A DNA stretch of 64,000 bases from Eledone cirrhosa (lineage: Eukaryota): the NCBI GenBank assembly GCA_964016885.1, contig OZ024752.1, positions 6,572,001-6,636,000 of the forward strand, in the 5' to 3' direction. Below the pieces are notes generated by a model that saw nothing but the letters and a program-made list of their open reading frames with translations, ran no database searches and was not told where the DNA came from. How positions within the stretch are numbered: position 1 is the stretch's first letter; every line of letters starts with the position of its first letter. This document shows, piece after piece, positions 109 to 56,735 of the stretch. Made by a program: the position numbers and the translations under genes.

Positions 109-771
109 TTAAGGTATTGTACTCAAAATAAATAATATCAAAATCTCATAGGTTCAATATTATGTGGAATAAAGACTTTACCATGAAAATATAATAGTAT
201 ATATAGAGTAATGTAAATATTATGTGAGGTAAAGCCTTTACTGTGACAATACAATAGTATATATAGAGTAATGTAAATATTATGTGAGGTAAAGCCTTTA
301 CTGTGACAATACAATAGTATATATAGAGTAATGTAAATGTTATGTGAGTTATTATGTGGGGTAAAGCCTTTACTGTGAAAATACAATAGTAGATATAGAG
401 TAATGTAAATGTTATGTGAGTTATTATGTGGGGTAAAGCCTTTACTGTGAAAATACAATAGTAGATATAGAGTAATGTAAATATTATGTGAGATATTATG
501 TGAGGTAAAGCCTTTACTGTGAAAATACAATAGTAGATATAGAGTAATGTAAATGTTATGTGAGTTATTATGTGAGGTAAAGCCTTTACTGTGAAAATAC
601 AATAGTATATATAGAGTAATGTAAATGTTATGTGAGATATTATGTGAGGTAAAGCCTTTACTGTGACAATACAATAGTATATATAGAGTAATGTAAATGT
701 TATGTGAGATATTATGTGAGGTAAACCCTTTACTGTGAAAATACAATAGTATATATAGAGTAATGTAAATG
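109..771. repeat. MITE-A copy with internal 60/72-bp tandem array (about 9 units), reverse orientation relative to 14973-16960
   Basis: Repeated tattatgtgaggtaaagcctttactgtgaaaatacaatagtatatatagagtaatgtaaat; reverse complement of the unit at 15000-16800. Confidence 0.9.
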
Positions 772-4960: not shown

Positions 4961-7900
4961 ACAACCTTACAGTCACTAGCCTAACACCCTAACCACTAGA
5001 CCACAAACAACCTTACGGTCACTAGCCTAACACCCTAACCACTAGACCACATACAATCTTATGGTCACCAGCCTAACACCCTAACCTCTAGGTCACATAC
5101 AACCTTACAGTCACTAGCCTAACACCCTAACCACTAGGTCACATACAACCTTACAGTCACTAGCCTAACACCCTAACCACTAGGTCACATACAACCTTAC
5201 GTTCACTAGCCTAACACCCTAACCTCTAGGTCACATACAACCTTACAGTCACTAGCCTAACACCCTAACCACTAGGTCACATACAACCTTACAGTCACTA
5301 GCCTAACACCCTAACCACTAGACCACAAACAACCTTACGGTCACTAGCCTAACACCCTAACCACTAGGTCACATACAACCTTACGGTCACTAGCCTAACA
5401 CCCTAACCACTAGACCACATACAATCTTATGGTCACCAGCCTAACACCCTGACCACTAGCCTAACACCCTAACCACTAGACCACAAACAACCTTACGGTC
5501 ACTAGCCTAACACCCTAACCACTAGGTCACATACAACCTTACGGTCACTAGCCTAACACCCTAACCACTAGGTCACATACAACCTTACGGCCACTAGCCT
5601 AACACCATAACCACTAGGTCGCATACAACCTTACAGTCACTAGCCTAACACCCTAACCACTAGGTCACATACAACCTTACAGTCACCAGCCTAACACCCT
5701 AACCACTAGGTCACATACAACCTTACGGTCACCAGCCTAACACCCTAACCACTAGGTCACATACAACCTTAGGGTCACCAGCCTAACACCCTAACCACTA
5801 GCCTAACACCCTGACCACTAGCCTAACACCCTAACCTCTAGGTCACACACAACGTTACGGTCACCAGCCTAACACCCTAACCAGTAGGTCACATACAACC
5901 TTACGGTCACCAGCCTAACACCCTAACCACTAGGTCACATACAACCTTACGGTCACCAGCCTAACACCCTAACCACTAGGTCACATACAACCTTAGGGTC
6001 ACCAGCCTAACACCCTAACCACTAGGTCACATACAACCTTACGGTCACCAGCCTAACACCCTAACCACTAGCCTAACACCCTGACCACTAGCCTAACACC
6101 CTAACCTCTAGGTCACACACAACCTTACGGTCACCAGCCTAACACCCTAACCAGTAGGTCACATACAACCTTACAGTCACTAGCCTAACACCCTAACCAC
6201 TAGGTCACATACAACCTTACAGTCACTAGCCTAACACCCTAACCACTAGCCTAACACCCTGACCACTAGCCTAACACCCTAACCACTAGGTCACATACAA
6301 CCTTACGTTCACTAGCCTAACACCCTAACCACTAGCCTAACACCCTAACCACTAGGTCACATACAACCTTACGGTCACCAGCCTAACACCCTAACCACTA
6401 GGTCACATACAACCTTACAGTCACCAGCCTAACACCCTAACCACTAGGTCACATACAACCTTACGGTCACCAGCCTAACACCCTAACCACTAGGTCACAT
6501 ACAACCTTACGGTCACCAGCCTAACACCCTAACCACTAGATCACATACAACCTTACGGTCACCAGCCTAACACCCTAACCACTAGGTCACATACAACCTT
6601 ACGTTCACTAGCCTAACACCCTGACCACTAGCCTAACACACTGACCACTAGCCTAACACCCTGACCACTAGGTCACATACAACCTTACGGTCACCAGCCT
6701 AACACCCTAACCACTAGGTCACATACAACCTTACAGTCACCAGCCTAACACCCTAACCTCTAGGTCACACACAACCTTACGTTCACTAGCCTAACACCCT
6801 AACCACTAGCCTAACACACTGACCACTAGCCTAACACCCTAACCTCTAGGTCACACACAACCTTACGGTCACTAGCCTAACACCCTAACCACTAGCCTAA
6901 CACCCTAACCACTAGCCTAACACCCTAACCACTAGGTCACATACAACCTTACGTTCACTAGCCTAACACCCTAACCACTAGCCTAACACCCTAACCACTA
7001 GGTCACATACAACCTTACGGTCACCAGCCTAACACCCTAACCACTAGGTCACATACAACCTTACGTTCACTAGCCTAACACCCTAACCACTAGCCTAACA
7101 CACTGACCACTAGCCTAACACCCTAACCACTAGGTCACATACAACCTTACGTTCACTAGCCTAACACCCTAACCACTAGGTCACATACAACCTTACGTTC
7201 ACTAGCCTAACACCCTAACCACTAGCCTAACACACTGACCACTAGCCTAACACCCTAACCTCTAGGTCACACACAACCTTACGGTCACTAGCCTAACACC
7301 CTAACCACTAGCCTAACACCCTGACCACCAGCCTAACACCCTAACCACTAGGTCACATACAACCTTACGGTCACTAGCCTAACACCCTAACCACTAGCCT
7401 AACACCCTGACCACTAGCCTAACACCCTAACCACTAGGTCACATACAACCTTACGGTCACTAGCCTAACACCCTAACCACTAGCCTAACACCCTGACCAC
7501 TAGCCTAACACCCTAACCACTAGGTCACATACAACCTTACGTTCACTAGCCTAACACCCTAACCACTAGCCTAACACCCTGACCACTAGCCTAACACCCT
7601 AACCACTAGGTCACATACAACCTTACGGTCACTAGCCTAACACCCTAACCACTAGCCTAACACCCTGACCACTAGCCTAACACCCTAACCACTAGGTCAC
7701 ATACAACCTTACGGTCACTAGCCTAACACCCTAACCACTAGCCTAACACCCTGACCACTAGCCTAACACCCTAACCACTAGGTCACATACAACCTTACGT
7801 TCACTAGCCTAACACCCTAACCACTAGCCTAACACCCTGACCACTAGCCTAACACCCTAACCACTAGGTCACATACAACCTTACGGTCACTAGCCTAACA

Positions 7901-8395
7901 CCCTAACCACTAGCCTAACACCCTGACCACTAGCCTAACACCCTAACCACTAGGTCACATACAACCTTACGGTCACTAGCCTAACACCCTAACCACTAGC
8001 CTAACACCCTGACCACTAGCCTAACACCCTAACCACTAGGTCACATACAACCTTACGTTCACTAGCCTAACACCCTAACCACTAGCCTAACACCCTGACC
8101 ACTAGCCTAACACCCTAACCACTAGGTCACATACAACCTTACGGTCACTAGCCTAACACCCTAACCACTAGCCTAACACCCTGACCACTAGCCTAACACC
8201 CTAACCACTAGGTCACATACAACCTTACGGTCACTAGCCTAACACCCTAACCACTAGGTCACACACAACCTTACGGTCACTAGCCTAACACCCTAACCAC
8301 TAGGTCACATACAACCTTACGGTCACTAGCCTAACACCCTAACCACTAGCCTAACACCCTGACCACTAGCCTAACACCCTAACCACTAGGTCACA
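4961..8395 (-). repeat. 46-bp satellite resembling a tRNA/SINE 5' head, with 20-bp subrepeats and 86/258-bp higher-order units
   Basis: Unit acaaccttacggtcactagcctaacaccctaaccactaggtcacat; minus strand atgtgacctagtggttagggtgttaggctagtgaccgtaaggttgt. Confidence 0.95.
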
Positions 8396-16974: not shown

Positions 16975-17060
16975 ATGTGACAGCTCACATCTATGCAGGT
17001 GTAGCTGGCCTCCTCTAAGGTATATCTCGTTGGAGGTGTCTTGGGTAATTTAATGATAGT
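16975..17060 (-). mobile_element. 3' fragment of SINE-2
   Basis: Reverse complement of 62081-62165. Confidence 0.75.
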
Positions 17061-17400
17061 GGTAGTGTTGATGTCATGATAAAATACACCCAGTACACTC
17101 TGTAAAGTAGTAGTGCTGGTGCCATGATAAATGTACACCCAGTACACTCTGTAAAGTGGTAGTGTTGATGTCATGATAAAATACACCCAGTCCACTCTGT
17201 AAAGTAGTAGTGCTGGTGCCATGATAAACCTGCACCCGGTACACTCTGTAAAGTAGTAGTGCTGGTGTCACAATAAAATACACCCAGTACACTCTGTGAA
17301 GTGGCAGTGCTGGTGCCATGATAAAATAAACTCAGTACACTCTGAAGTGGTAGTGCTGGTACCACAATTAAATTCACCCAGTACACTCTGTAAAGTGGCA
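17058..17400 (+). repeat. About 48-bp tandem array derived from the RTE-tail repeat family
   Basis: Repeated gtgctggtgccatgataaaatacacccagtacactctgtaaagtag; the same motif is in tandem at 30195-30390. Confidence 0.8.
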
Positions 17401-17460
17401 GTTCGGTGTCGATGTTTAAAAATCCTTTAATAAAAGATTTTTAAACATCGACACCAAACT
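17400..17460. other. Near-perfect 61-nt hairpin (29-bp arms)
   Basis: agttcggtgtcgatgtttaaaaatccttt-aat-aaaagatttttaaacatcgacaccaaact, two mismatches. Confidence 0.9.
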
Positions 17461-22540: not shown

Positions 22541-23619
22541 AAATGGTTTGTATTTATTGAGACAGGGGCAACGGAGGACGAGGACTTGACAAGGACATAT
22601 GACATCAAGTAAAAGAGAAAAGACCAAGTTTTAAAAGGGACAGAGGAGTGTGGTTGATTGAACCAAGACTTAGTATATTGTAGCTATTTATTTAATTGAA
22701 TCTAAATGGATGAAAAACAGGGTTTAAACTTGGAATGTAAGGGAACACTAAATAAACATCGGAAGGTATTTAGTCCTGATGTGTTTTAACAACTACACTG
22801 ACCTAGAAGTAATAGTAACCATGTCAACGGTGATGGTGGTGGTGGTGGTGATGATGGTGATGGTGGTGGTGATGGTGATGATGGTGGTGGTGATGGTGAT
22901 GGTGGTGGTGATGGTGGCGATGGTGATGGTGGTGGTGATGGTGGCGATGGTGGTGATGGTGGCGATGGTGGTGGTGGTGGGGGGGGTGGATTGCACCAAT
23001 CCTTAAGAATTATTTCTCCGACCCAGAATGAAGTAAATTAATGTCATGTACATATTGAAATTTTGGGTCATATTTTAAATCATATTCCAGCCACACACAC
23101 ATCTGTTTCTCACCAAGGCCCCACACACCCTCTGCTACCATTCCTGCAGGTATCCTCCATAATCTCATTCTCTCCTCCTCTTAATTACTGATTTACCAAA
23201 TCACGACTTTTACAGTTAAAAAGACTAAGTTTTATTATTATTATTATTTGTCCTAATTTCAATTCCTCAAATTTCTCCCTTGCCATCCCCTGGGGTGACA
23301 CATTCACCACTTTCTTATCCCCAGGACCAAGAATGATTTGCATGACATCATACGATTTCCTTTGTTTATGCAAGTTGTCTTTTAATGAAATTTAATTAAA
23401 AATCAAATTATATAATAAAATAAATATATTTAACTCTTTCATGACCATATTTCTGTCTCATCATCATCATTTTACGTCCGCCTCTCCCTGCTTGCCAGGG
23501 TGGGACGGGAACTGACTCTGGCTTGATTTCTACAGCTGGATGCCCTTCCTAACACCAACCTCATTTACAGTGAGTGCTGGGTGCTTTTTTGCTGTGACAC
23601 CTCCACGACCACTTTGCAG

Positions 23620-23790
23620 TGGAATGATAGGGACCCCAGTCCCCATCATCTCATTTCTACAGCTGAGTAAACTGGAGCAATGTGAAATAAAGTGTCTTGC
23701 TCAAGGAAACAACACATCACCCGGTCTGAGAATTGAACTCACAACCTTTCGATTGCAAGCCCAATGCTCTAACCACTAAGCCATGTGCCT
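23620..23790 (-). mobile_element. SINE-2 (tRNA-derived, CORE-like domain)
   Basis: Minus strand ggcacatggcttagtggttagagc (A box)...gagttcaattc (B box)...ccttgagcaagacacttta...gtttactcagctgtagaaatg; near-identical to 61922-62085. Confidence 0.85.
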
Positions 23791-24285
23791 CCAAGGTCAA
23801 AGTGTGGTCCCAAGGTGAAGGACAAGGGAGACTCCACTAAAGACACCCAAGGTCAATAATGTGGTCCCAAGGTGAAGGACAACAAAGTAGACTCCGCTAT
23901 AGACAGTCAAGGTCATGGATGTAGTCCCAAGGTGAAGGACAAGGGAGACTCCACTAAAGACACCCAAGGTCAATAATGTGGTCCCAAGGTGAAGGACAAC
24001 AAAGTAAACTCCGCTATAGACAGTCAAGGTCATGGATGTAGTCCCAAGGTGAAGGACAAGGGAGACTCCACTAAAGACACCCAAGGTCAAGAATGTGGTC
24101 CCAAGGTGAAGGACAACAAAGTAAACTCCGCTATAGACAGTCAAGGTCATGGATGTAGTCCCAAGGTGAAGGACAAGGTAGACTCCACTATAGACACCCA
24201 AGGTCAATAATGTGGTCCCAAGGTGAAGGACAACAAAGTAAACACTATAGACAGCCAAGGTCAAGGTGTGGTCTTAAACCAAGGT
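23791..24285. repeat. 57+60-bp dimeric (117-bp) tandem repeat rich in YCAAGGTCA
   Basis: Alternating monomers; period read from successive caaggtgaagg positions 23811, 23868, 23928, 23985. Confidence 0.9.
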
Positions 24286-26537: not shown

Positions 26538-26637
26538 ATCATCATCATCCCCGTTTTATGTCCATTCTTCCACGCTAGCATGGGTTAGACGGGTTGTCCT
26601 GTTGTGGGCAATGTTTCATTTACCACAAATTATAATA

Positions 26638-26998
26638 ATTGTTTCTGCTATAGGTACAAGGCCATCAATATTTGATTGTTTAAATTGATTAAATCAACCC
26701 CAGTGTATTACTGGTACTTTATTTTATCGACCCCGTAAGGATGAAAGGCAAAGTTAACCTCGGCGGGATTTGAACTCAGACCGTAAAGGGACGTAACTCT
26801 ATGGTACAAATCATGGCGTCCGACTCTCCACCGATACTGCCAATCCACCGCCCTCCCACAAATAATAATTGTTTCTACTACAGGCCAGCAATTTTGGGGG
26901 AGGGGAAAGTTGATTAAATCAACCCCAGTGCATTACTGGTACTTTATTTCATCGACCCCGTAAGGATGAAAGGCAAAGTTAACCTCGGCGGGATTTGA
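26638..26998 (-). mobile_element. Two tandem SINE-1 copies (first near full length including tRNA head)
   Basis: Head on minus strand ggcggtggattggcagtatcggtggagagtcggac...gagttcaaatcc; second copy 26868-26998 is truncated at the B box. Confidence 0.85.
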
Positions 26999-30068: not shown

Positions 30069-31177
30069 ATATAATGGAAACCAACTTTAATTCTCAGTTT
30101 ACTTAATGTTCATTAAATAGAAGACAGTCTTTTAATGGCAATAAATAAAAAGAATGCAGAAAGTAAGATTTGCACTCAACATTGAAATAGACACAAAGGT
30201 GGTAATGTTGGTGACATGACAAAAACACCCAGTCCACCCTGTAAAGTAGTAGTGCCAGTGATTCGACAAAAACACCTATTCCACCCGGTAGAGAGGTCAT
30301 GTTGGTGACACAACAAAAGCACCCAGTCCACCCTGTAAAGTGGTCACAATGGTACCATGATAAAAAGTACCCAGTCCATGCTGTAAATGTTTTTAGTGTT
30401 AGGAAGGGTATCCAGCCATAGAAACCAAACTAGAAATAGTCATCTGATCTGATTTGTCTCACAATAGGACAACTTGTCTAACCCATGCTAGTGTGTAAAA
30501 ATGGACGTTAACCAGTGATAATGATCCTAGAGCAGGAATCTAAATAAATATAGTTCCCCCCAACAACTCTATTTAAGACCTCGTTAGTTTACAGTAAATT
30601 CCTCACCATCTGATTAACTCATTATTGGCCCAATTTTTAAATATGTTCTGCTAAATCATTGCAGAATGTTAAATGTAAACAAAGTATTTAGAATAATTTA
30701 CTAAAATAATTAATTATTTCAATATTAAGAATGAATTTGTAACACACAACAAAAGGTGATTATATCAATTTATGTTGGAAAATTTAAATTTAATTAACAA
30801 CATTTTAAAGTGGGGTTTCATAGAACAAGAGGCAGTTATAGGCTAATTGGTATCAAGGGGTTAAATGGAATATTGCAGCTTAATATAATGATTTCTAATG
30901 AAATACACTGTATTTCAATTAATTAATGAAGAATTTGGAGGGATTTACGAAAATGTGATTTATAATTAACATGGAACTTGTAAAACAACTTAACAGATGG
31001 TACTTACATAAAATTATGCCAAAGATTTTAATTTAAATAGGAACCCTTTAAAATGGGTGGTTTTGTTTCATAGAACCAGAACCAATTTGGGGTGTGCTGG
31101 TATCAAAGAGTGGTGCTAAAATGGGTGTGCTTTGTTTTATAAAACAAGATGTGGTTTGGGACGAGAAGAGTTAAAAA

Positions 31178-36536: not shown

Positions 36537-37405
36537 CAGGGTGTGGACGATATTTGTTCGTAATTTTCAACTGCTAATTTTATGTCACATTTTTTTACTT
36601 CTGTTGTCACTCTTGTCTTCATAAAAACTGTGACTATATTTCCATTATTTATTTTCAGAATAATTGATTATGAATAAATTTGAACCTCCAAATTTGTGGA
36701 ATCCGTGCTGGGAGGACAAATAAGACCAGAAGATCAACTCCCAGAACAACAGGTGGCTCGCTGTCTCATCCAAAGACGTACCCAGACTCATGCAGACAAA
36801 GTTTCCAGCGACAACATTGGTCTTAGGTGTCATCAGCAGTCAAGGTGACGTCATGCCACCTCACTTCTTCCCTGAGGGCCTCAAGCTGAACACCGATTGC
36901 TACATCCGCGTTCTGAGCGAGGTAGTAAAGCCCTGGATCGATCAGGTAGCTGCAGGTAGGCCGTACGTGTGGCAGCAAGACTCAGCACCCTGCCATACCA
37001 GCCGAAAGACCCAAGCCTGGCTGTCAGAGAACTTCGTCGACCACACTTCACCTGACATCTGGCCTCCCAGCTCGCCTGACTGCAACCCCCTCGACTTCTT
37101 TGTGTGGGGCGCAGTGGAACGAGACACCAACAGATCTAGCTGCAATATGAAAGACGATGTGAAGGCCAGGATCACAAGTGCTTTTAGGGCCCTAAGTCAG
37201 GGGACAGTGACAAAGGCCTGTAGCCGGTTCCGTGGTTGCCTTGAGGCCGTCATCAAAGCCAATGGTGGGTTTATCAAGTGAGAGCGAAAGAGCAAGTCAT
37301 GAAGAGAAACTGACCCAAGTTTGATAAATAAATCTTAAAAAATAAAACTACTGTGTTATTTTTTCCTAGACAGTAATCTTGCGAACAAATATCGTCCGCA
37401 CCCTG
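36537..37405 (+). mobile_element. Internally deleted Tc1/mariner element of DD37D (maT) type, 869 bp
   Basis: TA|cagggtgtggacgatatttgttcgtaa ... ttgcgaacaaatatcgtccgcaccctg|TA; 27-bp TIRs with 2 mismatches; TA target duplication. Confidence 0.93.
36724..37281 (+). pseudogene. C-terminal half of a DD37D transposase (DNA-binding domain and first catalytic Asp deleted)
   Basis: WQQDSAPCH ... WPPSSPDCNPLDFFVW with 37 residues between the 2nd and 3rd Asp; the frame is open upstream to DQKINSQNNRW. Confidence 0.9.
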
Positions 37406-38098: not shown

Positions 38099-38769
38099 GA
38101 TTTAAATTGATTAAATAACAAAATATTTGTTCTCTCCAAATTCTTCATTAAGTAGTTAACTCATGAAAGGGTTAAATATAACCTCATAAAGAACTATCTC
38201 CAAGTACAATGATGGAGTCAGAATTACAAGAAGCCTGGATGAGTCAGAAAAATATGAAGAAAGCAACAGTTTAAACAACATTATATATAGAACGGATCCA
38301 CTAAAATAAAAGTGGGTATTTTTAGTAATATTTGTGTTGCCAACGCTAGTTTCAATACTAGTTTCCATGGATTTTAGTCACCCTCTTTGCTATTCTTAGA
38401 TAGACTTAGCCAACAAACTGCAAGACATTCAACAACAACTTATTGCTGCTATGTTCAGTTAATCTCACAACTGAAACTATAACTATTTCAGATCATTGCA
38501 TCGAATAGGAGGGTCCTGGACCATTGACAACAAGGTTCTTGTCATTGTTGGTAGCTCCCTGATGAGGGGATTGAGTTATCCCAGTGCCTTAACCTAACTA
38601 TCAACCACTGGTTTCAGCCATTTGATGGCAGCCATGATGGAACAAAACTCTGAAAGGATTCAATCAATCATATTGATCTCAATATGTTTTGTGTATAATT
38701 GGTTCTTAATTTATTGGTATCTTTCTGATGAACTGCTAACGTCATTGGACACACACCATCATAACCTCA

Positions 38770-41700
38770 GACAGCCATGTAGCTGTGAAGCAGTCCTTAA
38801 CCACACACAGCCATGTAGCTATGAAGCAGTCCTTAACCAGACACAGCCATGTAGCTATGAAACAGTCCTTAACCACACACAGCCATGTAGCTATGAAACA
38901 GTCCTTAACCAGACACAGCCATGTAGCTATGAAACAGTCCTTAACCACACACAGCCAAGTAGCTGTGAAACAACATCCCTAACCAGACAACCATGTAGCT
39001 ATGAAACAATCCTTAACCACACACAGCCATATAGCTATGAAGCAGTCCTTAACCACACACAGCCACGTAGCTATGAAGCAGTCCTTAACCAGACACAGCC
39101 ATGTAGCTATGAAACAGTCCTTAACCACACACAGCCATGTAGCTATGAAGCAGTCCTTAACCACACACAGCCATGTAGCTATGTAACAGTCCTAAACCAC
39201 ACACAGCCATGTAGCTATGAAGCAGTCCTTAACCACACACAGCCATGTAGCTATGAAACAGTTTTTAACCACACACAGCCATGTAGCTATGAAACAGTTT
39301 TTAACCACACACAGCCATGTAGCTATGAAACAATCCTTAACCACACACAGCCATGTAGCTATGAAGCAGTCCTTAACCAGACACACAGCCATGTAGCTAT
39401 GAAGCAATCCTTAACCACACACAGCCATGTAGCTATGAAGCAGTCCTTAACCAGACACAGCCATGTAGCTATGAAACAGTCCTTAACCAGACACAGCCAT
39501 GTAGCTATGAAGCAGTCCTTAACCACACACAGCCATGTAGCTATGAAACAGTTTTTAACCACACACAGCCATGTAGCTATGAAACAATCCTTAACCACAC
39601 ACAGCCATGTAGCTATGAAGCAGTCCTTAACCAGACACAGCCATGTAGCTATGAAGCAGTCCTTAACCAGACACAGCCATGTAGCTATGAAGCAGTCCTT
39701 AACCAGACACAGCCATGTAGCTATGAAACAGTTTTTAACCACACACAGCCATGTAGCTATGAAACAATCCTTAACCACACACAGCCATGTAGCTATGAAG
39801 CAGTCCTTAACCACACACAGCCATGTAGCTATGAAGCAGTCCTTAACCACACACAGCCATGTAGCTATGAAACAGTTTTTAACCACACACAGCCATGTAG
39901 CTATGAAACAATCCTTAACCACACACAGCCATGTAGCTATGAAGCAGTCCTTAACCAGACACAGCCATGTAGCTATGAAGCAGTCCTTAACCAGACACAC
40001 AGCCATGTAGCTATGAAGCAGTCCTTAACCAGACACAGCCATGTAGCTATGAAGCAGTCCTTAACCACACACAGCCATGTAGCTATGAAACAGTTTTTAA
40101 CCACACACAGCCATGTAGCTATGAAACAATCCTTAACCACACACAGCCATGTAGCTATGAAGCAGTCCTTAACCAGACACAGCCATGTAGCTATGAAGCA
40201 GTCCTTAACCAGACACACAGCCATGTAGCTATGAAACAGTCCTTAACCAGACACAGCCATGTAGCTATGAAGCAGTCCTTAACCAGACACACAGCCATGT
40301 AGCTATGAAGCAGTCCTTAACCAGACACAGCCATGTAGCTATGAAGCAGTCCTTAACCAGACACAGCCATGTAGCTATGAAGCAGTCCTTAACCACACAC
40401 AGCCATGTAGCTATGAAACAGTCCTTAACCAGACACAGCCATGTAGCTATGAAGCAGTCCTTAACCACACACAGCCATGTAGCTATGAAACAGTTTTTAA
40501 CCACACAGCCATGTAGCTATGAAACAATCCTTAACCACACACAGCCATGTAGCTATGAAGCAGTCCTTAACCAGACACAGCCATGTAGCTATGAAGCAGT
40601 CCTTAACCAGACACAGCCATGTAGCTATGAAGCAGTCCTTAACCAGACACAGCCATGTAGCTATGAAACAGTTTTTAACCACACACAGCCATGTAGCTAT
40701 GAAACAATCCTTAACCACACACAGCCATGTAGCTATGAAGCAGTCCTTAACCACACACAGCCATGTAGCTATGAAGCAGTCCTTAACCACACACAGCCAT
40801 GTAGCTATGAAACAGTTTTTAACCACACACAGCCATGTAGCTATGAAACAATCCTTAACCACACACAGCCATGTAGCTATGAAGCAGTCGTTAACCAGAC
40901 ACAGCCATGTAGCTATGAAACAGTCCTTAACCAGACACAGCCATGTAGCTATGAAGCAGTCCTTAACCACACACAGCCATGTAGCTATGAAACAGTTTTT
41001 AACCACACACAGCCATGTAGCTATGAAACAATCCTTAACCACACACAGCCATGTAGCTATGAAGCAGTCCTTAACCAGACACAGCCATGTAGCTATGAAG
41101 CAGTCCTTAACCAGACACAGCCATGTAGCTATGAAGCAGTCCTTAACCAGACACAGCCATGTAGCTATGAAACAGTTTTTAACCACACACAGCCATGTAG
41201 CTATGAAACAATCCTTAACCACACACAGCCATGTAGCTATGAAGCAGTCCTTAACCACACACAGCCATGTAGCTATGAAGCAGTCCTTAACCACACACAG
41301 CCATGTAGCTATGAAACAGTTTTTAACCACACACAGCCATGTAGCTATGAAACAATCCTTAACCACACACAGCCATGTAGCTATGAAGCAGTCCTTAACC
41401 AGACACAGCCATGTAGCTATGAAGCAGTCCTTAACCAGACACACAGCCATGTAGCTATGAAACAGTCCTTAACCAGACACAGCCATGTAGCTATGAAGCA
41501 GTCCTTAACCAGACACACAGCCATGTAGCTATGAAGCAGTCCTTAACCAGACACAGCCATGTAGCTATGAAGCAGTCCTTAACCAGACACAGCCATGTAG
41601 CTATGAAGCAGTCCTTAACCACACACAGCCATGTAGCTATGAAACAGTCCTTAACCAGACACAGCCATGTAGCTATGTAACAGTCCTTAACCAGACACAG

Positions 41701-41964
41701 CCATGTAGCTATGAAGCAGTCCTTAACCAGACACACAGCCATGTAGCTATGAAGCAGTCCTTAACCAGACACAGCCATGTAGCTATGAAGCAGTCCTTAA
41801 CCAGACACACAGCCATGTAGCTATGAAGCAGTCCTTAACCAGACACAGCCATGTAGCTATGAAGCAGTCCTTAACCAGACACACAGCCATGTAGCTATGA
41901 AGCAGTCCTTAACCAGACACAGCCATGTAGCTATGTAACAGTCCTTAACCAGACACACAGCCAT
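38770..41964. repeat. 36-bp satellite (about 88 units) with 4+5-unit higher-order patterning
   Basis: Unit cagccatgtagctatgaagcagtccttaaccacaca. Confidence 0.97.
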
Positions 41965-44479: not shown

Positions 44480-44692
44480 TGTAGGAGGTGAGTTTTATTG
44501 TAGTACAATAAAGCAATGCAGATATCGGATAAGAAGCACTCTACAGTTTGTAGGACTGGAGTATACATAATATATAAGATCAAAAGATGGTTAAATGAGT
44601 TCCATGTATTTTATTATGCGCATTTCAAAAACATATTTGTTTTTGAAATGCTCATAATAAAATACATGGAACTCTTTTAACCATCTTTTGAT

Positions 44693-44753
<61 letters not shown>

Positions 44754-45456
44754 AATGTACAAGTAAAGTGTACAATCAAAAATATTTAAAGAACAAACTT
44801 TTGATTAAATTCTTCATTTTTCTATACTTCACGTCTAGTGTTTGTTTTCCTATATATATATATACACACATATATATAAATATATATATGTGTGTGTGTG
44901 TGTATACCAAGATTATAGGGAAGGTTTTCTGTATTCTAGGCTGCTCGTGATTACTGACTTAACAAAAGATGTCTAGATCAGACATGAGATCAAAACACTC
45001 AGAGGGCCAACCAAATGTATATTTATAATGGAGCTGTAGCACTAAGAAAAGTCCCGGACCCAATATGGGTCTCTGTAAATGCACACTACAGCAACAGGTG
45101 CAGGGTGCAATCTGTTAGCTACAGTGGCAGGGAAAGTGTGAGTAAGCCTGCCAAAAATAGTTCTGATGCTTCGACAGCAGATGGTGAAATCTGTGATAAG
45201 TGGAAGGAATCCATTGTCCTCTCGGTGTGAATCATCGCTAGAAAGGTATAGAGACTTCATTAGGTAGTGACATCACAGGAGGAAGAAAGAACAACCTGTA
45301 GTTCATCTCTTTGATGGACTAGAGGTTGTTCTGAACAAACATCAATTAATCACCAAATACTGACCCCTAGTCCAACCTCTCGTCTATCAAAGGACCCTTA
45401 TGTCAATGTCAAATATCTTAAAGAAACTGTCTTCATCCTAGTACAATAATAACAAC

Positions 45457-45672
45457 CATTTCTGATTTAGGCTCAAAGCCAGCAATTTTACGGGAGAGGA
45501 AAGTTGATTAAATCGACCCCAGTACATTACTGGTACTTTATTTTATCGATCCCATAAGGATGAAAGGTAAAGCTATCCTCGGCGGGATTTGAACTCAGAA
45601 TGTAAAGAGCTGTAACTCTATGGCACAAAGTGTGTTGTCCAACATCTTATGGAAGCTGCCAATCCACTACCC
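45457..45672 (-). mobile_element. SINE-1 copy whose 5' head runs directly into the adjacent satellite
   Basis: B box gagttcaaatcc on minus strand near 45585-45596; head gccaatccactacc at 45658-45671. Confidence 0.85.
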
Positions 45673-48600
45673 TATTGTCCAACACTCTACCCTATTGTCC
45701 AACACTCTACCCTATTGTCCAACACTCTACCCTATTGTCCAACACTCTACCCTATTGTCCAACACTCTACCCTATTGTCCAACACTCTACCCTATTGTCC
45801 AGCACTCTACCCTATTGTTCAGCACTCTACCCTATTGTCCAGCACTACCCTATTGTCCAGTGCTCTAGCCACTCAGCCACTCCACTACCCCATTGTCCAG
45901 TGCTCTAGCCACTCAGCCACTCCACTACCCCCATTGTCCAGTGCTCTAACCACTCAGCCACTCCACTACCCCCTTGTCCAGTGCTCTAGCCACTCAGCCA
46001 CTCCACTACCCCATTGTCCAGTGCTCTAGCCACTCAGCCACTCCACTACCCTATTGTCCAGTGCTCTAGCCACTCAGCCACTCCACTACCCCATTGTCCA
46101 GTGCTCTAGCCACTCAGCCACTCCACTACCCTATTGTCCAGTGCTCTAGCCACTCAGCCACTCCACTACCCCATTGTCCAGTGCTCTAGCCACTCAGCCA
46201 CTCCACTACCCTATTGTCCAGTGCTCTAGCCACTCAGCCACTCCACTACCCCCATTGTCCAGTGCTCTAGCCACTCAGCCACTCCACTACCCCCATTGTC
46301 CAGTGCTCTAGCCACTCAGCCACTCCACTACCCCCATTGTCCAGTGCTCTAGCCACTCAGCCACTCCACTACCCCATTGTCCAGTGCTCTAGCCACTCAG
46401 CCACTCCACTACCCTATTGTCCAGTGCTCTAGCCACTCAGCCACTCCACTACCCCCATTGTCCAGTGCTCTAGCCACTCAGCCACTCCACTACCCCCATT
46501 GTCCAGTGCTCTAGCCACTCAGCCACTCCACTACCCCCTTGTCCAGTGCTCTAGCCACTCAGCCACTCCACTACCCTATTGTCCAGTGCTCTAGCCACTC
46601 AGCCACTCCACTACCCCATTGTCCAGTGCTCTAGCCACTCAGCCACTCCACTACCCCATTGTCCAGTGCTCTAGCCACTCAGCCACTCCACTACCCCTAT
46701 TGTCCAGTGCTCTAGCCACTCAGCCACTCCACTACCCCATTGTCCAGTGCTCTAGCCACTCAGCCACTCCACTACCCCATTGTCCAGTGCTCTAGCCACT
46801 CAGCCACTCCACTACCCCCTTGTCCAGTGCTCTAGCCACTCAGCCACTCCACTACCCCCTTGTCCAGTGCTCTAGCCACTCAGCCACTCCACTACCCCCA
46901 TTGTCCAGTGCTCTAGCCACTCAGCCACTCCACTACCCCATTGTCCAGTGCTCTAACCACTCAGCCACTCCACTACCCCCTTGTCCAGTGCTCTAGCCAC
47001 TCAGCCACTCCACTACCCCCTTGTCCAGTGCTCTAGCCACTCAGCCACTCCACTACCCCCTTGTCCAGTGCTCTAGCCACTCAGCCACTCCACTACCCCA
47101 TTGTCCAGTGCTCTAGCCACTCAGCCACTCCACTACCCCATTGTCCAGTGCTCTAGCCACTCAGCCACTCCACTACCCCCTTGTCCAGTGCTCTAGCCAC
47201 TCAGCCACTCCACTACCCTATTGTCCAGTGCTCTAGCCACTCAGCCACTCCACTACCCCCTTGTCCAGTGCTCTAGCCACTCAGCCACTCCACTACCCCC
47301 TTGTCCAGTGCTCTAGCCACTCAGCCACTCCACTACCCCATTGTCCAGTGCTCTAGCCACTCAGCCACTCCACTACCCCATTGTCCAGTGCTCTAGCCAC
47401 TCAGCCACTCCACTACCCCCTTGTCCAGTGCTCTAGCCACTCAGCCACTCCACTACCCTATTGTCCAGTGCTCTAGCCACTCAGCCACTCCACTACCCCC
47501 TTGTCCAGTGCTCTAGCCACTCAGCCACTCCACTACCCCCTTGTCCAGTGCTCTAGCCACTCAGCCACTCCACTACCCCATTGTCCAGTGCTCTAGCCAC
47601 TCAGCCACTCCACTACCCCCTTGTCCAGTGCTCTAGCCACTCAGCCACTCCACTACCCTATTGTCCAGTGCTCTAACCACTCAGCCACTCCACTACCCCC
47701 TTGTCCAGTGCTCTAGCCACTCAGCCACTCCACTACCCCCTTGTCCAGTGCTCTAGCCACTCAGCCACTCCACTACCCTATTGTCCAGTGCTCTAGCCAC
47801 TCAGCCACTCCACTACCCCCATTGTCCAGTGCTCTAGCCACTCAGCCACTCCACTACCCCCTTGTCCAGTGCTCTAGCCACTCAGCCACTCCACTACCCT
47901 ATTGTCCAGTGCTCTAGCCACTCAGCCACTCCACTACCCCCATTGTCCAGTGCTCTAGCCACTCAGCCACTCCACTACCCCCTTGTCCAGTGCTCTAGCC
48001 ACTCAGCCACTCCACTACCCCATTGTCCAGTGCTCTAGCCACTCAGCCACTCCACTACCCCCATTGTCCAGTGCTCTAGCCACTCAGCCACTCCACTACC
48101 CCCTTGTCCAGTGCTCTAGCCACTCAGCCACTCCACTACCCTATTGTCCAGTGCTCTAGCCACTCAGCCACTCCACTACCCCCATTGTCCAGTGCTCTAG
48201 CCACTCAGCCACTCCACTACCCCCTTGTCCAGTGCTCTAGCCACTCAGCCACTCCACTACCCTATTGTCCAGTGCTCTAGCCACTCAGCCACTCCACTAC
48301 CCCCATTGTCCAGTGCTCTAGCCACTCAGCCACTCCACTACCCCCTTGTCCAGTGCTCTAGCCACTCAGCCACTCCACTACCCCCTTGTCCAGTGCTCTA
48401 GCCACTCAGCCACTCCACTACCCTATTGTCCAGTGCTCTAGCCACTCAGCCACTCCACTACCCCATTGTCCAGTGCTCTAGCCACTCAGCCACTCCACTA
48501 CCCTATTGTCCAGTGCTCTAGCCACTCAGCCACTCCACTACCCCCATTGTCCAGTGCTCTAGCCACTCAGCCACTCCACTACCCCATTGTCCAGTGCTCT

Positions 48601-49268
48601 AGCCACTCAGCCACTCCACTACCCCCTTGTCCAGTGCTCTAGCCACTCAGCCACTCCACTACCCTATTGTCCAGTGCTCTAGCCACTCAGCCACTCCACT
48701 ACCCCCATTGTCCAGTGCTCTAGCCACTCAGCCACTCCACTACCCCCATTGTCCAGTGCTCTAGCCACTCAGCCACTCCACTACCCTATTGTCCAGTGCT
48801 CTAGCCACTCAGCCACTCCACTACCCCCTTGTCCAGTGCTCTAGCCACTCAGCCACTCCACTACCCTATTGTCCAGTGCTCTAGCCACTCAGCCACTCCA
48901 CTACCCCCATTGTCCAGTGCTCTAGCCACTCAGCCACTCCACTACCCCATTGTCCAGTGCTCTAGCCACTCAGCCACTCCACTACCCCATTGTCCAGTGC
49001 TCTAACCACTCAGCCACTCCACTACCCCCATTGTCCAGTGCTCTAGCCACTCAGCCACTCCACTACCCTATTGTCCAGTGCTCTAACCACTCAGCCACTC
49101 CACTACCTCATTGTCCAGTGCTCTAGCCACTCAGCCACTCCACTACCCCATTGTCCAGTGCTCTAGCCACTCAGCCACTCCACTACCCCCATTGTCCAGT
49201 GCTCTAGCCACTCAGCCACTCCACTACCCCATTGTCCAGTGCTCTAGCCACTCAGCCACTCCACTACT
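45665..49268 (-). repeat. 20-bp array (45665-45850) then 40/41-bp satellite (about 85 units) containing a Pol III A-box consensus
   Basis: Unit ctccactaccccattgtccagtgctctagccactcagcca; minus strand ggggtagtggagTGGCTGAGTGGctagagcactggacaat. Confidence 0.95.
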
Positions 49269-49377
49269 CTATTCTGTGTGTGTTTTGATTGGGTAAAGGG
49301 TCAATATTGTAAGTAGATTGACCACTGTGAAATATAAAAATAGAGTAAATCATTTAGACTACCTCAACCAACACCAC

Positions 49378-49580
49378 TACCTTTACATTACTCTATATAT
49401 ACTATTGTATTTTCAAGGTAAACACTTTATCTTACATATCGAATCTATGAGATTTTCATATTATTTATTTTGAGAATAATACCTTAACATCAGTATGAGT
49501 GGCCAGTTACAGCTGGTTTGAACAGAAAGAGGTGAAATAATTCTGGTCCAATACAACCGCTTTAAATGCTAAAGGGTTAA
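49378..49580. mobile_element. MITE-A array-free copy
   Basis: tttacattactctatatatactattg ... tttaaatgctaaaggg|ttaa. Confidence 0.85.
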
Positions 49581-50004
49581 ACACGAACATACTCATACTA
49601 CAGCTTAAAAAAGAGGGAATTTGGGGATATATTTGTAGAGCTCTTGGTAATCACATTATTTAATCTTTCCAAGATCATATTTCTAATGATATACACTATT
49701 TTAATTAATGAAGAATTTTGAGGGATTTACTGAAATTAATAATTATTTCATTACTAAGATAGTCATTTAAGGTACAGTTCTTAAATTTTAATTTAAATAC
49801 AGTAGTAACTCTGGGTGGTTTTGTTTTCATAGAATCCAGGTCAATTTTGATGTAACAAAACAGCACTTAACAGGTTTTCCTATATATAGTTTAATCCTCA
49901 TGTAAATTAATAAAAATAGTAAGAGGGGTTAAACACAGCTTGAACATATTAAAAAAGGGTCTATTTTTAACTCAGAATTATATAAACACAAACAAACATT
50001 TTAA

Positions 50005-50146
50005 CCCTTTAGCATTTAAACCAGCCATATCCGGCCAGAATCCTTTTGCCTCTTTCTGTTCAAACTGGCCACTCATACTGATGTTAAGGTATTTTTCTCA
50101 AAATAAATATCATCACAATCTCATAGATTGATATTATGTGAGGTAA
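50005..50146. mobile_element. MITE-A copy truncated by the hammerhead-bearing module
   Basis: ttaa|ccctttagcatttaaaccagcc ... gatattatgtgaggtaa, then unrelated sequence. Confidence 0.8.
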
Positions 50147-50147
50147 C

Positions 50148-50221
50148 TATTTCATCTGATGAACGAGCTGGACATTTCTGTAAGGGCCGTCTAGTTTCCT
50201 GAAACCTTTAGTAATGGAATA
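50148..50221 (+). ncRNA. Type I hammerhead ribozyme motif
   Basis: TATTTCAT-CTGATGA-acGAGCTGGAC...GTCTAGTTTcct-GAAAC-CTTTA-GTA-ATGGAATA; 8-bp stem I, 9-bp stem II (base mismatched), GUA triplet. Confidence 0.7.
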
Positions 50222-50316
50222 ATTATATTGTGTTGTTTATTATGTAAATCAATAAAAAAAAAATATATATATAATAACACAAGGATAATTTGTTAAGCCT
50301 TCATTACGTTTATTGA

Positions 50317-50405
50317 TTGGTGACGTATGTTTCACTATTGATCAGCTCAAGGTTCGATCTGTATTGATCTAGCCCGACTCTGGAATCAAAAGCTCGTCAG
50401 ATCTC
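50317..50405 (-). ncRNA. Hammerhead-like core with long stem II; stem I degenerate
   Basis: Minus strand CTGACGA-GCTTTTGATT...GATCAATAGT-GAAAC-ATAC-GTC. Confidence 0.55.
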
Positions 50406-50509
50406 TGCTGTGGTAACGACAGAATATTATATTACACTCTGTTTAGCTCGACACCTCGTGACGTGAACCTAAACATCGAGTGCGCACCTGGGTGAACCTA
50501 CAGTAACTT

Positions 50510-53029: not shown

Positions 53030-56000
53030 CCCTTTAACATTTACATTACTCTATATATACTATTGTATTTTCACAGTAAAGGCTTTACCTCACATAATAT
53101 CTCACATAACATTTACATTACTCTATATATACTATTGTATTTTCACAGTAAAGTCTTTACCTCACATAATATCTCACATAACATTTACATTACTCTATAT
53201 ATACTATTGTATTTTCACAGTAAAGTCTTTACCTCACATAATATCTCACATAACATTTACATTACTCTATATATACTATTGTATTTTCACAGTAAAGGCT
53301 TTACCTCACATAATATCTCACATAACATTTACATTACTCTATATATGCTATTGTATTTTCACAGTAAAGTCTTTACCTCACATAATATCTCACATAACAT
53401 TTACATTACTCTATATATACTATTGTATTTTCACAGTAAAGGCTTTACCTCACATAATATCTCACATGACATTTACATTACTCTATATATGCTATTGGGA
53501 GCCTGGGTAGGGATCCTTTGAATAAGATCTGTCCGAGATGCGTGCATGATGACGAAACCGTTGCGCACGCATTCGTACACTGCCCAGGCATTGCTGACCT
53601 GTGGGGCTATGTGGAACGACTACTGTCGAGGGTGGGACCAATCCGGTTGACCACCGAGTCCATTGTCACGATCAAACCGCCTCCCCCTTTCAAAAACGAA
53701 GGAGAGGCGGTTTTTCTCTGTGTGGTAGCCATGGCTAAAGAAGTTGTATGGTGGACGAGGCTGAAAGGGCTGAGGTCAGACACCTTTCTCTCCGGCCAAC
53801 AACTGGTCCTCTTTTTCAAATACCATTTTAAAAGAAGGATCAGAATGGAGAGAGAGGTGCTCTACCCCAGCAAGTTTTATGAAAGGTGGGTGAAAGTAGG
53901 GAGAATGGCCAGAGTGAATGGGTCTTCGCTCTATATCAGCCTGTAGGTGAAAGAAGAGGAAAAAGAGGAGACGAGGGAAGCACCTACTCTTTGTGCTCCT
54001 GAGGAGAAGGGTTGCACATTTTTTCCGGGGTGTGTGTGACCCACGTTAATGCCCCCTCCCTATTGAGGACTTCGTTTGTTGTTGTTATTTCATTGTTATA
54101 TTTTTGTACTCGTTAATTATATGTAAACTTTCCCCTTTGTATCTGTCCTTACCTTTTGTGCCCTAGTGGCAAATAAAGAAACCACTCTATATATACTATT
54201 GTATTTTCACAGTAAAGGCTTTACCTCACATAATACCTCACATAACATTTACATTACTCTATATATACTATTGTATTTTCACAGTAAAGGCTTTACCCCA
54301 CATAATATCTCACATAACATTTACATTACTCTATATATACTATTGTATTTTCACAGTAAAGGCTTTACCTCACATAATACCTCACATAACATTTACATTA
54401 CTCTATATATACTATTGTATTTTCACAGTAAAGGCTTTACCCCACATAATATCTCACATAACATTTACATTACTCTATATATACTATTGTATTTTCACAG
54501 TAAAGGCTTTACCTCACATAATACCTCACATAACATTTACATTACTCTATATATACTATTGTATTTTCACAGTAAAGGCTTTACCTCACATAATACCTCA
54601 CATAACATTTACATTACTCTATATATACTATTGTATTTTCACAGTAAAGGCTTTACCTCACATAATATCTCACATAACATTTACATTACTCTATATATAC
54701 TATTGTATTTTCACAGTAAAGGCTTTACCTCACATAATACCTCACATAACATTTACATTACTCTATATATACTATTGTATTTTCACAGTAAAGGCTTTAC
54801 CTCACATAATACCTCACATAACATTTACATTACTCTATATATACTATTGTATTTTCACAGTAAAGACTTTACCTCACATAATATCTCACATAACATTTAC
54901 ATTACTCTATATATACTATTGTATTTTCACAGTAAAGGCTTTACCTCACATAATATCTCACATAACATTTACATTACTCTATATATACTATTGTATTTTC
55001 ACAGTAAAGGCTTTACCTCACATAATACCTCACATAACATTTACATTACTCTATATATACTATTGTATTTTCACAGTAAAGGCTTTACCTCACATAATAC
55101 CTCACATAACATTTACATTACTCTATATATACTATTGTATTTTCACAGTAAAGGCTTTACCTCACATAATACCTCACATAACATTTACATTACTCTATAT
55201 ATACTATTGTATTTTCACAGTAAAGACTTTACCTCACATAATACCTCACATAACATTTACATTACTCTATATATACTATTGTATTTTCACAGTAAAGACT
55301 TTACCTCACATAATACCTCACATAACATTTACATTACTCTATATATACTATTGTATTTTCACAGTAAAGGCTTTACCTCACATAATACCTCACATAACAT
55401 TTACATTACTCTATATATACTATTGTATTTTCACAGTAAAGACTTTACCTCACATAATACCTCACATAACATTTACATTACTCTATATTTACTATTGTAT
55501 TTTCACAGTAAAGACTTTACCTCACATACTATCTCACATAACATTTACATTACTCTATATATACTATTGTATTGTCACAGTAAAGTCTTTATCTCACATA
55601 ATACCTCACATAACATTTACATTACTCTATATTTACTATTGTATTTTCACAGTAAAGGCTTTACCTCACATAACATTTACATTACTCTATATTTACTATT
55701 GTATTTTCACAGTAAAGGCTTTACCTCACATAATATCTCACATAACATTTACATTACTCTATATATACTATTGTATTTTCACAGTAAAGGCTTTACCTCA
55801 CATAATATCTCACATAACATTTACATTACTCTCTATATACTATTGTATTTTCACAGTAAAGGCTTTACCTCACATAATATCTCACATAACATTTACATTA
55901 CTCTATATATACTATTGTATTTTCACAGTAAAGGCTTTACCTCACATAATATCTCACATAACATTTACATTACTCTCTATATACTATTGTATTTTCACAG

Positions 56001-56735
56001 TAAAGGCTTTACCTCACATAATATCTCACATAACATTTACATTACTCTATATATACTATTGTATTTTCACAGTAAAGGCTTTACCCCACATAATATCTCA
56101 CATAACATTTACATTACTCTATATATACTATTGTATTTTCACAGTAAAGGCTTTACCCCACATACTATCTCACATAACATTTACATTACTCTATATATAC
56201 TATTGTATTTTCACAGTAAAGGCTTTACCTCACATAATATCTCACATAACATTTACATTACTCTATATATACTATTGTATTTTCACAGTAAAGGCTTTAC
56301 CTCACATAATATCTCACATAACATTTACATTACTCTATATATACTATTGTATTTTCACAGTAAAGGCTTTACCCCACATACTATCTCACATACCATTTAC
56401 ATTACTCTATATATACTATTGTATTTTCACAGTAAAGGCTTTACCCCACATACTATCTCACATACCATTTACATTACTCTATATATACTATTGTATTTTC
56501 ACAGTAAAGGCTTTACCTCACATAACATTTACATTACTCTATATTTACTATTGTATTTTCACAGTAAAGGCTTTATCTTACTTAATTATTTCACATAATA
56601 TCGAATCTATGAGATTTTGATATCTATTTTGAGAACAATACCTTAATGTAGGTATGAGTGGCTAGTTACAGCCGGTTTGAACAGAAAGAGGTGAGAGAAT
56701 TCTGGCCGGATATGAGCAGTTTAAATGTTAAATGG
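53030..56735. mobile_element. MITE-A with about 40 units of the 72-bp satellite and a LINE insertion; sits at a TTAA within another MITE-A fragment (52925-53029)
   Basis: TTAA|ccctttaacatttacattac ... ttaaatgttaaatgg|TTAA. Confidence 0.88.
53498..54183 (+). mobile_element. 5'-truncated Tx1/L1-type non-LTR retrotransposon (ORF2 C-terminus plus 3' UTR)
   Basis: CPRCVHDDETVAHAFVHC (CCHC zf-RVT-type finger), ...F...W motif and stop at 53946; 3' end aataaagaaacc; flanked by actctatatat(g/a)ctattg at 53480-53497 and 54184-54201. Confidence 0.85.

What the first reader, a model, noticed from the sequence alone, without database searches (positions are those of the whole stretch)
45457..49268. About 85 tandem Pol III A boxes stacked upstream of a single SINE B box
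Seen: the minus-strand unit GGTAGTGGAGTGGCTGAGTGGCTAGAGCACTGGACAAT aligns to the SINE-1 head (GGCGGTGGATTGGCAGTATCGGTRGAGRGTCGGACGCCAT at about 26815-26853) and contains TGGCTGAGTGG, a match to the A-box consensus TRGCNNAGYGG that is better than the SINE's own. The array is attached, in the same orientation, to the 5' end of a SINE-1 that keeps its B box. With 4961-8395 this is a second independent amplification of a tRNA-like head, on the same strand and of similar size. Inference: SINE heads are recurrent satellite seeds, possibly acting as TFIIIC/insulator platforms or multi-start Pol III templates.
Basis: partly seen in the sequence, partly recalled or inferred. Interest (0 to 1): 0.7.

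Follow-up and report, generated by a model that had tools for sequence, protein, structure and literature searches.

The report
SINE-head minisatellite spreading between copies
The front end of a small jumping element is repeated 85 times in a row here; similar front-end repeats sit on many other copies of the element, mostly away from chromosome middles, and were likely expanded and passed between copies by DNA repair, with no sign that the stacked promoter boxes do a job.

Summary
Observation confirmed: 85 units of 40/41 bp, each with an A-box match, lie 5' of a SINE-1 with an intact B box. Corrections: nine short units without an A box intervene, so the nearest array A box is 274 nt from the B box (own decayed A box: 55 nt). 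The good A box resembles a second SINE family's head. The unit is private to this locus (85 of 85 genome matches). SINE-1 head arrays as a class are genome-wide: 5,973 exact head-to-head junctions, about 96% of one type, on three body subtypes, mostly inside a target-site duplication. All 24 listed multi-head loci on the four giant chromosomes avoid the middle, where young copies are common. Two rare junctions are each confined to one region or chromosome. This points to expansion and copying between loci at DNA level, not multi-start Pol III retroposition. A boxes are not protected; heads are not the commonest SINE seed. No RNA test was possible. Known kind: SINE-derived satellites (PMC10702118). 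The scan noted transposon-attached satellites elsewhere in this genome; my look-ups showed no note on this family.

The parts
45852..49270 (-). Array of 85 units of 40/41 bp; each unit is the first 40 nt of a SINE head with an A-box match and no B box; starts at SINE position +1; no target-site duplication found
   Evidence: unit and junction private to this locus (85 of 85 and 19 of 19 genome matches)
45674..45851 (-). One 18-bp and eight 20-bp internally deleted units without an A box, between the array and the SINE
   Evidence: (period 20, 9.8 copies)
45445..45673 (-). SINE-1 copy with the long tail variant: decayed head (27 of 40 to family consensus), body 90 of 98 aligned bases identical, short ATT-type tail
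45650..45661 (-). The SINE's own decayed A box, 55 nt from the B box (family spacing 55)
   Evidence: gap worked out by hand from the printed coordinates
45586..45594 (-). The only B box downstream of the array, 274 nt from the nearest array A box
4961..8395 (-). Second head array (46-bp unit plus 20-bp subunits) from a SINE-2-type head; stops before the B box, no body attached
38762..41964 (-). Third head-like array (36-bp unit, 88 copies), similar to a rare relic tRNA-type head; no body attached
26621..26853 (-).
23481..23793 (-). SINE-2 copy; its head carries the 11-nt A-box form found in the array unit

Best explanation
This is a SINE-derived minisatellite: the first 40 bases of one old SINE-1 insertion are repeated 85 times, likely by local duplication and DNA-level expansion, and the stacked A boxes likely have no Pol III function. 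Shown: the unit is private to the locus and shares the local head's rare start; units 12-36 match a SINE-2 head better than SINE-1. Inferred: that core was picked up by recombination at the A-box bases shared by the two families (or, less likely, by 8-bp slippage). Shown: a 45-bp version of the head array sits on many other SINE-1 insertions of three body subtypes, in small chromosomes and the outer parts of large ones. Inferred: the active SINE-1 retroposes single-headed; a rare duplication makes a head-to-head junction; ectopic gene conversion then copies array units into other SINE copies, preferentially nearby, and ordinary minisatellite turnover expands them. Whether this locus's junction descends from the 45-bp one by a 5-bp deletion or arose here is open; local origin fits better.
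For: Locus: 85 of 85 unit matches and 19 of 19 junction matches are here. Unit 1-11 equals the own head 11 of 11, with a TA start seen in 0 of 70 other heads in 1.4 Mb. Unit 12-36: 23 of 25 to a SINE-2 copy, 12 to the own head, 15-17 to SINE-1; 6 of 7 changes from old SINE-1 fall on the 7 of 25 sites that separate the families (p=2.6e-4 under random change). A SINE-1 head array switches into a SINE-2 body at the same A-box bases at C26:20.9 Mb. Family: 5,973 junctions, about 5,752 of one type. In 30 multi-head loci: body types 17/5/8 against 11/8/9 (5 untyped) in single-headed copies; TSD of 9 bp or more round the whole element in 19 of 29; in 8 of 29 the outermost head is 5'-truncated while inner units are complete, which needs a donor. 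All 24 multi-head loci listed on C1-C4 lie within 84 Mb of an end (KS p=1.4e-10), whereas 67 of the first 100 young exact copies on C1 lie beyond 85 Mb and 0 of 30 of them examined are multi-headed. A 50-bp junction occurs only at five loci in C2:18.4-21.9 Mb with unrelated 3' flanks in the four that keep a body, on two body types. A SINE-2 head junction occurs only at three places, all on C25. A-box sites are not conserved in arrays.
Against: Sharing of unit variants between near and far loci was not significant (0.076 against 0.038, p=0.089, 24 loci). The window's own junction has no relatives elsewhere, so inter-locus copying is not shown for this locus beyond the SINE-2-like core. The 23-of-25 SINE-2 copy was found with a pattern built from the unit (11 genome matches); the usual old SINE-2 form differs at one more site. 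No recombination map: that outer regions recombine more is assumed. 672 of 772 matches were not listed, so the position test covers only matches with up to 2 mismatches. The C25 loci were not fetched. Why the units start at +1 and stop before the B box is unexplained. No RNA or chromatin data.
Confidence: 0.68

Rival explanations
1. Multi-headed source genes (like mouse L1 5' monomers, recalled) are transcribed from an upstream head and retropose as two-headed elements, which later expand in place.
For: One dominant junction; TSD round the whole element in 19 of 29; 5'-truncated outermost heads in 8 of 29 fit incomplete reverse transcription; 9 of 30 loci have exactly two heads. The second A box would be about 100 nt from the B box, near the yeast range.
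Against: No listed multi-head locus, two-headed ones included, lies in the middle of C1-C4, where young copies are common; the trait is on all three body types and both tails; 0 of 30 young exact copies carry junction remnants; rare junctions are confined to one region or chromosome.
Confidence: 0.13
2. Each array arises independently: a hot spot in the head (hairpin at about +45, G-rich strand, stalled fork at a Pol III complex, or a reverse-transcriptase jump to a 5' RNA fragment) recreates the same junction.
For: At least four junction types in two families start at or near +1 and end before the B box; this locus looks local in origin; positions 1-45 have the highest G4Hunter score along SINE-1 (0.71); yeast tRNA genes stall forks through TFIIIB (10.1101/2020.01.29.925644, abstract).
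Against: Junction lengths show almost no scatter (3 matches with 5-8 spacer bases against about 5,752 with 4); truncated outermost heads with complete inner units cannot come from local duplication; regional confinement of the 50-bp junction (about 4e-11 by a rough uniform null).
Confidence: 0.11
3. One reading: the stacked A boxes act as a TFIIIC or insulator platform or give a ladder of Pol III starts.
For: Perfect 11-nt A-box match in all 85 units; intact B box; no run of four T on the coding strand from 49268 to 45300.
Against: One B box only; B-box binding is the main determinant of TFIIIC binding and spacing is 31-93 nt in yeast tRNA genes (PMC5356446, passages), against 274 nt or more here; A boxes are unprotected across 30 arrays; the unit is private to one locus; 44% of the window is minisatellite, mostly not matched to SINEs.
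Confidence: 0.05
4. The array length is an assembly artefact.
For: Near-identical units; not checked against reads.
Against: Four common junction variants are interspersed without a fixed period; both ends join cleanly to unique flank and SINE.
Confidence: 0.03

Closest known systems
SINE-derived satellites (sSat1-3) of squamate reptiles, PMC10702118 (parts 1-4 of 5 of the text read; supplements not seen)
   Same: Tandem units shorter than the SINE, with the SINE remainder attached at one end; a few to hundreds of units; one dominant variant at many loci plus private ones; preference for chromosome ends; some variants cover the tRNA part.
   Different: Units are 40-50 bp rather than about 70-290; they start at +1, hold the A box and stop before the B box; invertebrate genome; here TSDs, truncated outer heads and region-confined junctions point to copying between SINE insertions, which the parts read do not test.
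TE-derived human minisatellites, PMC3389668 (passages); mouse B1 VNTR family and MaLR minisatellites as listed in PMC9659126 (passages and table only)
   Same: Minisatellites born in retroposon copies and expanded by local duplication; hot spots within a TE; repeats already inside the master spread by transposition (as for LTR12), like the SINE-2 48-bp repeat here.
   Different: One exact junction on several SINE subtypes with a distribution unlike the SINE's own; not reported in the passages seen.
Mouse L1 5' monomer promoters (recalled; also named in earlier finding e1-8673048)
   Same: Tandem promoter-bearing 5' units in front of a retroposon body inside one TSD.
   Different: No sign that upstream units are transcribed or retroposed; single-headed copies are the active form.
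Amphibian tRNA-like satellites (PolIII/TAN, OAX, Rana/polIII, Hy/polIII) as summarised in PMC10702118
   Same: Tandem repeats containing tRNA-like promoter sequence.
   Different: Those units are 200 nt or longer and have no proven parent SINE; here the parent is attached and the unit has no B box.

Membership tests
SINE-derived satellite (sSat) | Repeat unit is a part of a SINE and shorter than it | tested here: met
   40 bp of a 195-230 bp SINE; shuffle p=0.0035 to the SINE-1 head, 0.001 to the own head, 0.0005 to the SINE-2 head
SINE-derived satellite (sSat) | At least four middle monomers head to tail, with a longer terminal unit running to the SINE end | tested here: met
   85 units, then short units, then the full SINE
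SINE-derived satellite (sSat) | High homogeneity within long loci | tested here: met
   99.8% over the first 36 nt
SINE-derived satellite (sSat) | Tendency towards chromosome ends | tested here: met
   21 of 24 loci on C1-C4 in the outer quarter of the half-length; window at 6.6 of 50.4 Mb. Telomeres themselves not mapped
SINE-derived satellite (sSat) | Copy-number variation between orthologous loci | not testable with these tools
tRNA-derived SINE (parent SINE-1) | Internal A and B boxes in the head | tested here: met
   A-like box at 13-24 (12-nt form), B box at 80 of the sample consensus
tRNA-derived SINE (parent SINE-1) | High copy number, target-site duplications, simple-repeat tail | tested here: met
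   40,681 head matches (some are array units); 1,917 exact 94-bp copies; a 9-bp or longer flank repeat in 27 of 30 young copies, a few of low complexity
tRNA-derived SINE (parent SINE-1) | Head traceable to a tRNA | tested here: inconclusive
   No ARAGORN gene in the window; no Rfam match for SINE-1; SINE-2 head matches tRNA weakly, 15 bits against cut-off 29
Named octopus SINEs (OK, OR1, OR2; names recalled, OR2 cited as a CORE-SINE in PMC4758252) | Identity to the published consensus | not tested
   No consensus available from a tool; the resemblance is recalled only
Type 2 Pol III promoter per array unit | A box with a B box about 30-95 nt downstream | tested here: not met
   274 nt for the nearest unit, about 3,650 for the farthest
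Type 2 Pol III promoter per array unit | TFIIIC/TFIIIB binding and Pol III transcripts | not testable with these tools
   Needs ChIP or CUT&RUN and 5'-end RNA mapping
L1-type tandem 5' monomer promoter | Multi-monomer copies are the retroposed product and are spread like other copies | tested here: not met
   0 of 24 in the middle of C1-C4 against 67 of 100 controls beyond 85 Mb on C1; 0 of 30 young copies multi-headed

The most novel reading that the evidence does not exclude
The head array behaves like a homing minisatellite: breaks at Pol III-loaded SINE heads are repaired from a nearby array-bearing copy, turning single-headed SINEs into array carriers. One duplication thus colonised hundreds to thousands of existing insertions across subfamilies without passing through RNA. 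The rare junctions confined to C2:18-22 Mb and to C25 are young waves of that spread and record the range of ectopic repair.
Probability: 0.3. Interest if true: 0.75.

Novelty: new variant of a known kind. Interest (0 to 1): 0.47.

Why it matters
The locus itself is one more minisatellite in a repeat-dense region. The family matters more. How the same satellite unit reaches many dispersed loci is an open point: PMC3389668 says known mechanisms explain only 6% of TE-derived repeats, and PMC10702118 calls sSat genesis non-random without naming the cause. Here each array stays attached to a datable SINE with its own TSD and body subtype, and rare junctions act as tracers. That makes inter-locus conversion, its range and its link to recombination directly measurable in an animal genome.

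Tried and rejected
Rfam over 44500-50500: 16 matches, all microRNA models below their cut-offs on AT-rich hairpins and none on the array. ARAGORN: 0 genes. A dispersed family with this exact unit: rejected (one search scored one candidate region only). Strand preference: not significant; orientation towards the chromosome end 9 of 24 by eye. Variant sharing by distance: not significant (overlapping loci counted some units twice, and the 50-bp junction fell under the 10% filter at two loci and was missed at a third). Unit divergence rises with array size (Spearman 0.55) but most of the loci were picked for near-perfect last units, so it is not used. The share of multi-head loci on C1-C4 (6 of 41, p=2e-7) is inflated because SINE-1 is denser on small chromosomes (13.1 against 5.8-7.5 per 100 kb); the within-chromosome test is the one relied on. 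G-quadruplex explanation: fits SINE-1 (0.71; array 0.83) but not SINE-2 heads (0.33) or the other two window arrays (0.58, 0.28). Script faults: index error in its locus part, redone; crashed, redone; printed gaps and the SINE-2/old SINE-1 comparison were misaligned; redone by hand and. A third genome sample and the C25 loci were not obtained. Literature searches found no report of this array family or of array transfer between SINE copies; the library lacks most subscription papers, and the original octopus SINE paper was not seen. No supplements were read; those of PMC10702118 may hold comparable head-only variants.

Full report
What is there. On the minus strand, 49270-45852 holds 85 units of 40/41 bp. 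They are 99.8% identical over their first 36 nt and differ almost only in four interspersed junction variants. Its B box (45594-45586) is intact and its own A box (45661-45650) is decayed but at the family spacing of 55 nt. The nearest array A box is 274 nt from the B box (coordinates). A second B-like 9-mer at 49523-49515 lies upstream of the array, on the wrong side. No TSD was found for this old element. The window is G000:C12:6572001-6636000 in a 3.0-Gb genome. The SINEs resemble octopus families from recall and from earlier notes; I did not test that.

The unit is private. A 25-letter core has 85 of 85 genome matches here and the junction 19 of 19. Unit positions 1-11 equal the locus's own head (11 of 11), including a start seen in 0 of 70 other heads in 1.4 Mb. 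So the array was built or homogenised from this copy. Positions 12-36, which hold the good A box, match a SINE-2 head at 23 of 25, against 12 for the own head and 15-17 for SINE-1. That SINE-2 copy was found with a unit-derived pattern; the usual old form differs at one more site. Six of seven changes from old SINE-1 fall on the seven sites that separate the families (p=2.6e-4 under random change). An 8-bp slippage inside the unit would also give much of this, so I put the chimera reading at about two in three. A precedent exists: at C26:20.9 Mb a SINE-1 head array crosses into a SINE-2 body at the same A-box bases. Either way the better A box is not evidence of selection.

Head arrays are genome-wide. 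A pattern for head end followed by head start has 5,973 exact matches (2,862 plus, 3,111 minus, reversed control 0). Of these 218 have 0-3 spacer bases (41-bp type in the rows seen) and 3 have 5-8, leaving about 5,752 of one 45-bp type. A pattern for junction plus last head has 772 matches at up to 3 mismatches, some inside arrays, against 40,681 head matches at up to 2. In samples, 5 of 56 full-length SINE-1 had an upstream head (4 of 29 in the region round the window, 1 of 27 elsewhere). I estimate hundreds to a few thousand loci; this is not a count.

Anatomy of 30 multi-head loci (picked for a near-perfect last head). Two to 34 or more heads; nine have two. A flank repeat of 9 bp or more brackets the whole element in 19 of 29. 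The outermost head starts at +1 to +3 in 21 of 29 and at +5 to +30 in 8, while the inner units are complete; in L182 a 13-bp TSD abuts the truncated head. Local duplication of a truncated single head cannot give that, so a donor is needed: a multi-headed RNA or another locus. Bodies are of three types (17, 5, 8) and both tail lengths, roughly as in single-headed copies (11, 8, 9, and 5 untyped).

RNA donor or DNA donor. Young exact copies (1,917) run evenly along C1: 67 of the first 100 lie beyond 85 Mb, and 0 of the 30 examined carry an upstream head. All 24 multi-head loci listed on C1-C4 (complete for up to 2 mismatches; 672 further rows unlisted) lie within 84 Mb of an end, 21 in the outer quarter of the half-length (KS p=1.4e-10). 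Retroposition of two-headed RNA would be expected to fill the middles too. Two tracers point the same way. A 50-bp junction has 77 matches at five loci within C2:18.4-21.9 Mb and none elsewhere. The four that keep a body have unrelated 3' flanks and two body types. A SINE-2 head junction has 11 matches at three places, all on C25 (not fetched). Against this, overall sharing of unit variants was only weakly higher among neighbours (p=0.089). I infer ectopic gene conversion between SINE copies plus ordinary minisatellite turnover; the link to recombination rate is assumed.

Are heads favoured seeds? In sample 1 (464 kb round the window plus 59 spaced 10-kb stretches) 49 of 323 complex arrays matched a SINE: 28 rows the SINE-2 body 48/49-bp repeat (13 with four or more copies), 14 rows at 9 loci a head, 7 other parts. 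In sample 2 (35 stretches) 10 of 80 matched, 5 the 48-bp repeat and none a head. Within SINE-1, heads give 5 of 9 events without the query (p=0.035) but 1 of 4 outside the region. Among 14 arrays of 2 kb or more in the region, the 4 SINE-matched ones all come from the 5' part. So heads are real and recurrent seeds, prominent here and among long arrays, but not the commonest. The window is 44% minisatellite.

Function. In yeast tRNA genes the boxes lie 31-93 nt apart and B-box binding is the main determinant of TFIIIC binding (PMC5356446, passages). The array adds no B box. Across 30 arrays, non-CpG A-box sites vary as often as others (8 events at 10 sites, 21 at 27). The coding strand has no run of four T through the array and SINE, which allows but does not show read-through. 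Binding and transcription are untested. Pol III may still matter as a cause: the complex blocks replication forks at yeast tRNA genes (10.1101/2020.01.29.925644, abstract only) and could supply the breaks. That step is speculation.

Comparison. It works like, and passes the testable features of, the SINE-derived satellites of squamates (PMC10702118, parts 1-4 of 5). It also resembles TE-derived minisatellites of human and mouse (PMC3389668 and PMC9659126, passages). Searches gave no report of this family or of array transfer between SINE copies, in a library that lacks most subscription papers; no supplements were read. Earlier notes on this genome describe other transposon-attached satellites; look-ups by sequence, place and words gave nothing on this family.

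Verdict. Observation confirmed; interpretation partly supported. The locus is a private SINE-head minisatellite, likely without Pol III function. The family shows a likely DNA-level spread between SINE insertions that can be tested. New variant of a known kind; interest 0.47.

Noticed in passing
window 156-770, 14981-16824, 53035-53497, 54184-56598; single-unit copies near 49380-49600 and 50000-50150: A dispersed AT-rich element with an internal 72-bp tandem repeat of very variable copy number and shared flanks; two copies sit in inverted orientation just upstream of the array.
   Followed up: no
window 53470-54183: A LINE-like fragment (weak zf-RVT match, below cut-off) splits a 72-bp array in two.
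   Followed up: partly
window 36724-37278: Open frame with a weak DDE_3 transposase match (E 0.0019, below cut-off).
   Followed up: partly
window 17058-17402 and 30199-30387: Arrays of the SINE-2 body 47-49-bp repeat, the commonest SINE-derived array in both samples.
   Followed up: partly
G000:C26:20904740-20906000 (L293 242-1510): About 25 SINE-1 heads switch into a SINE-2 body at the A-box bases shared by the families: an inter-family recombinant.
   Followed up: yes
G000:C2:18.44-21.88 Mb (L200-L219, L294-L296): A 50-bp head junction found only in five arrays within 3.5 Mb, mixed with 45-bp units in four of them.
   Followed up: yes
G000:C25:0.87, 19.66 and 23.99 Mb: A SINE-2 head-to-head junction at three places, all on one chromosome; loci not fetched.
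   Followed up: partly
G000:C3:376917083-376964759 and C1:10316826-10344793: Junction matches run over about 48 kb (41-bp type) and 28 kb (45-bp type, interrupted): very long head arrays near chromosome ends.
   Followed up: no
just right of the window, window coordinates 64523-66625; L099 4624-4923: Arrays that do include B-box sequence: a 20-bp unit inside a SINE-2 (105 copies, part of the box) and a 75-bp unit in a SINE-1 relative (4 copies).
   Followed up: partly
window 44570-44700: Long AT-rich inverted repeat, MITE-like; gives only sub-threshold microRNA matches.
   Followed up: no
whole window and 464-kb region: Minisatellites (period 15 or more, at least 4 copies) cover 44% of the window and 33% of the region against 11-18% in spaced samples.
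   Followed up: partly
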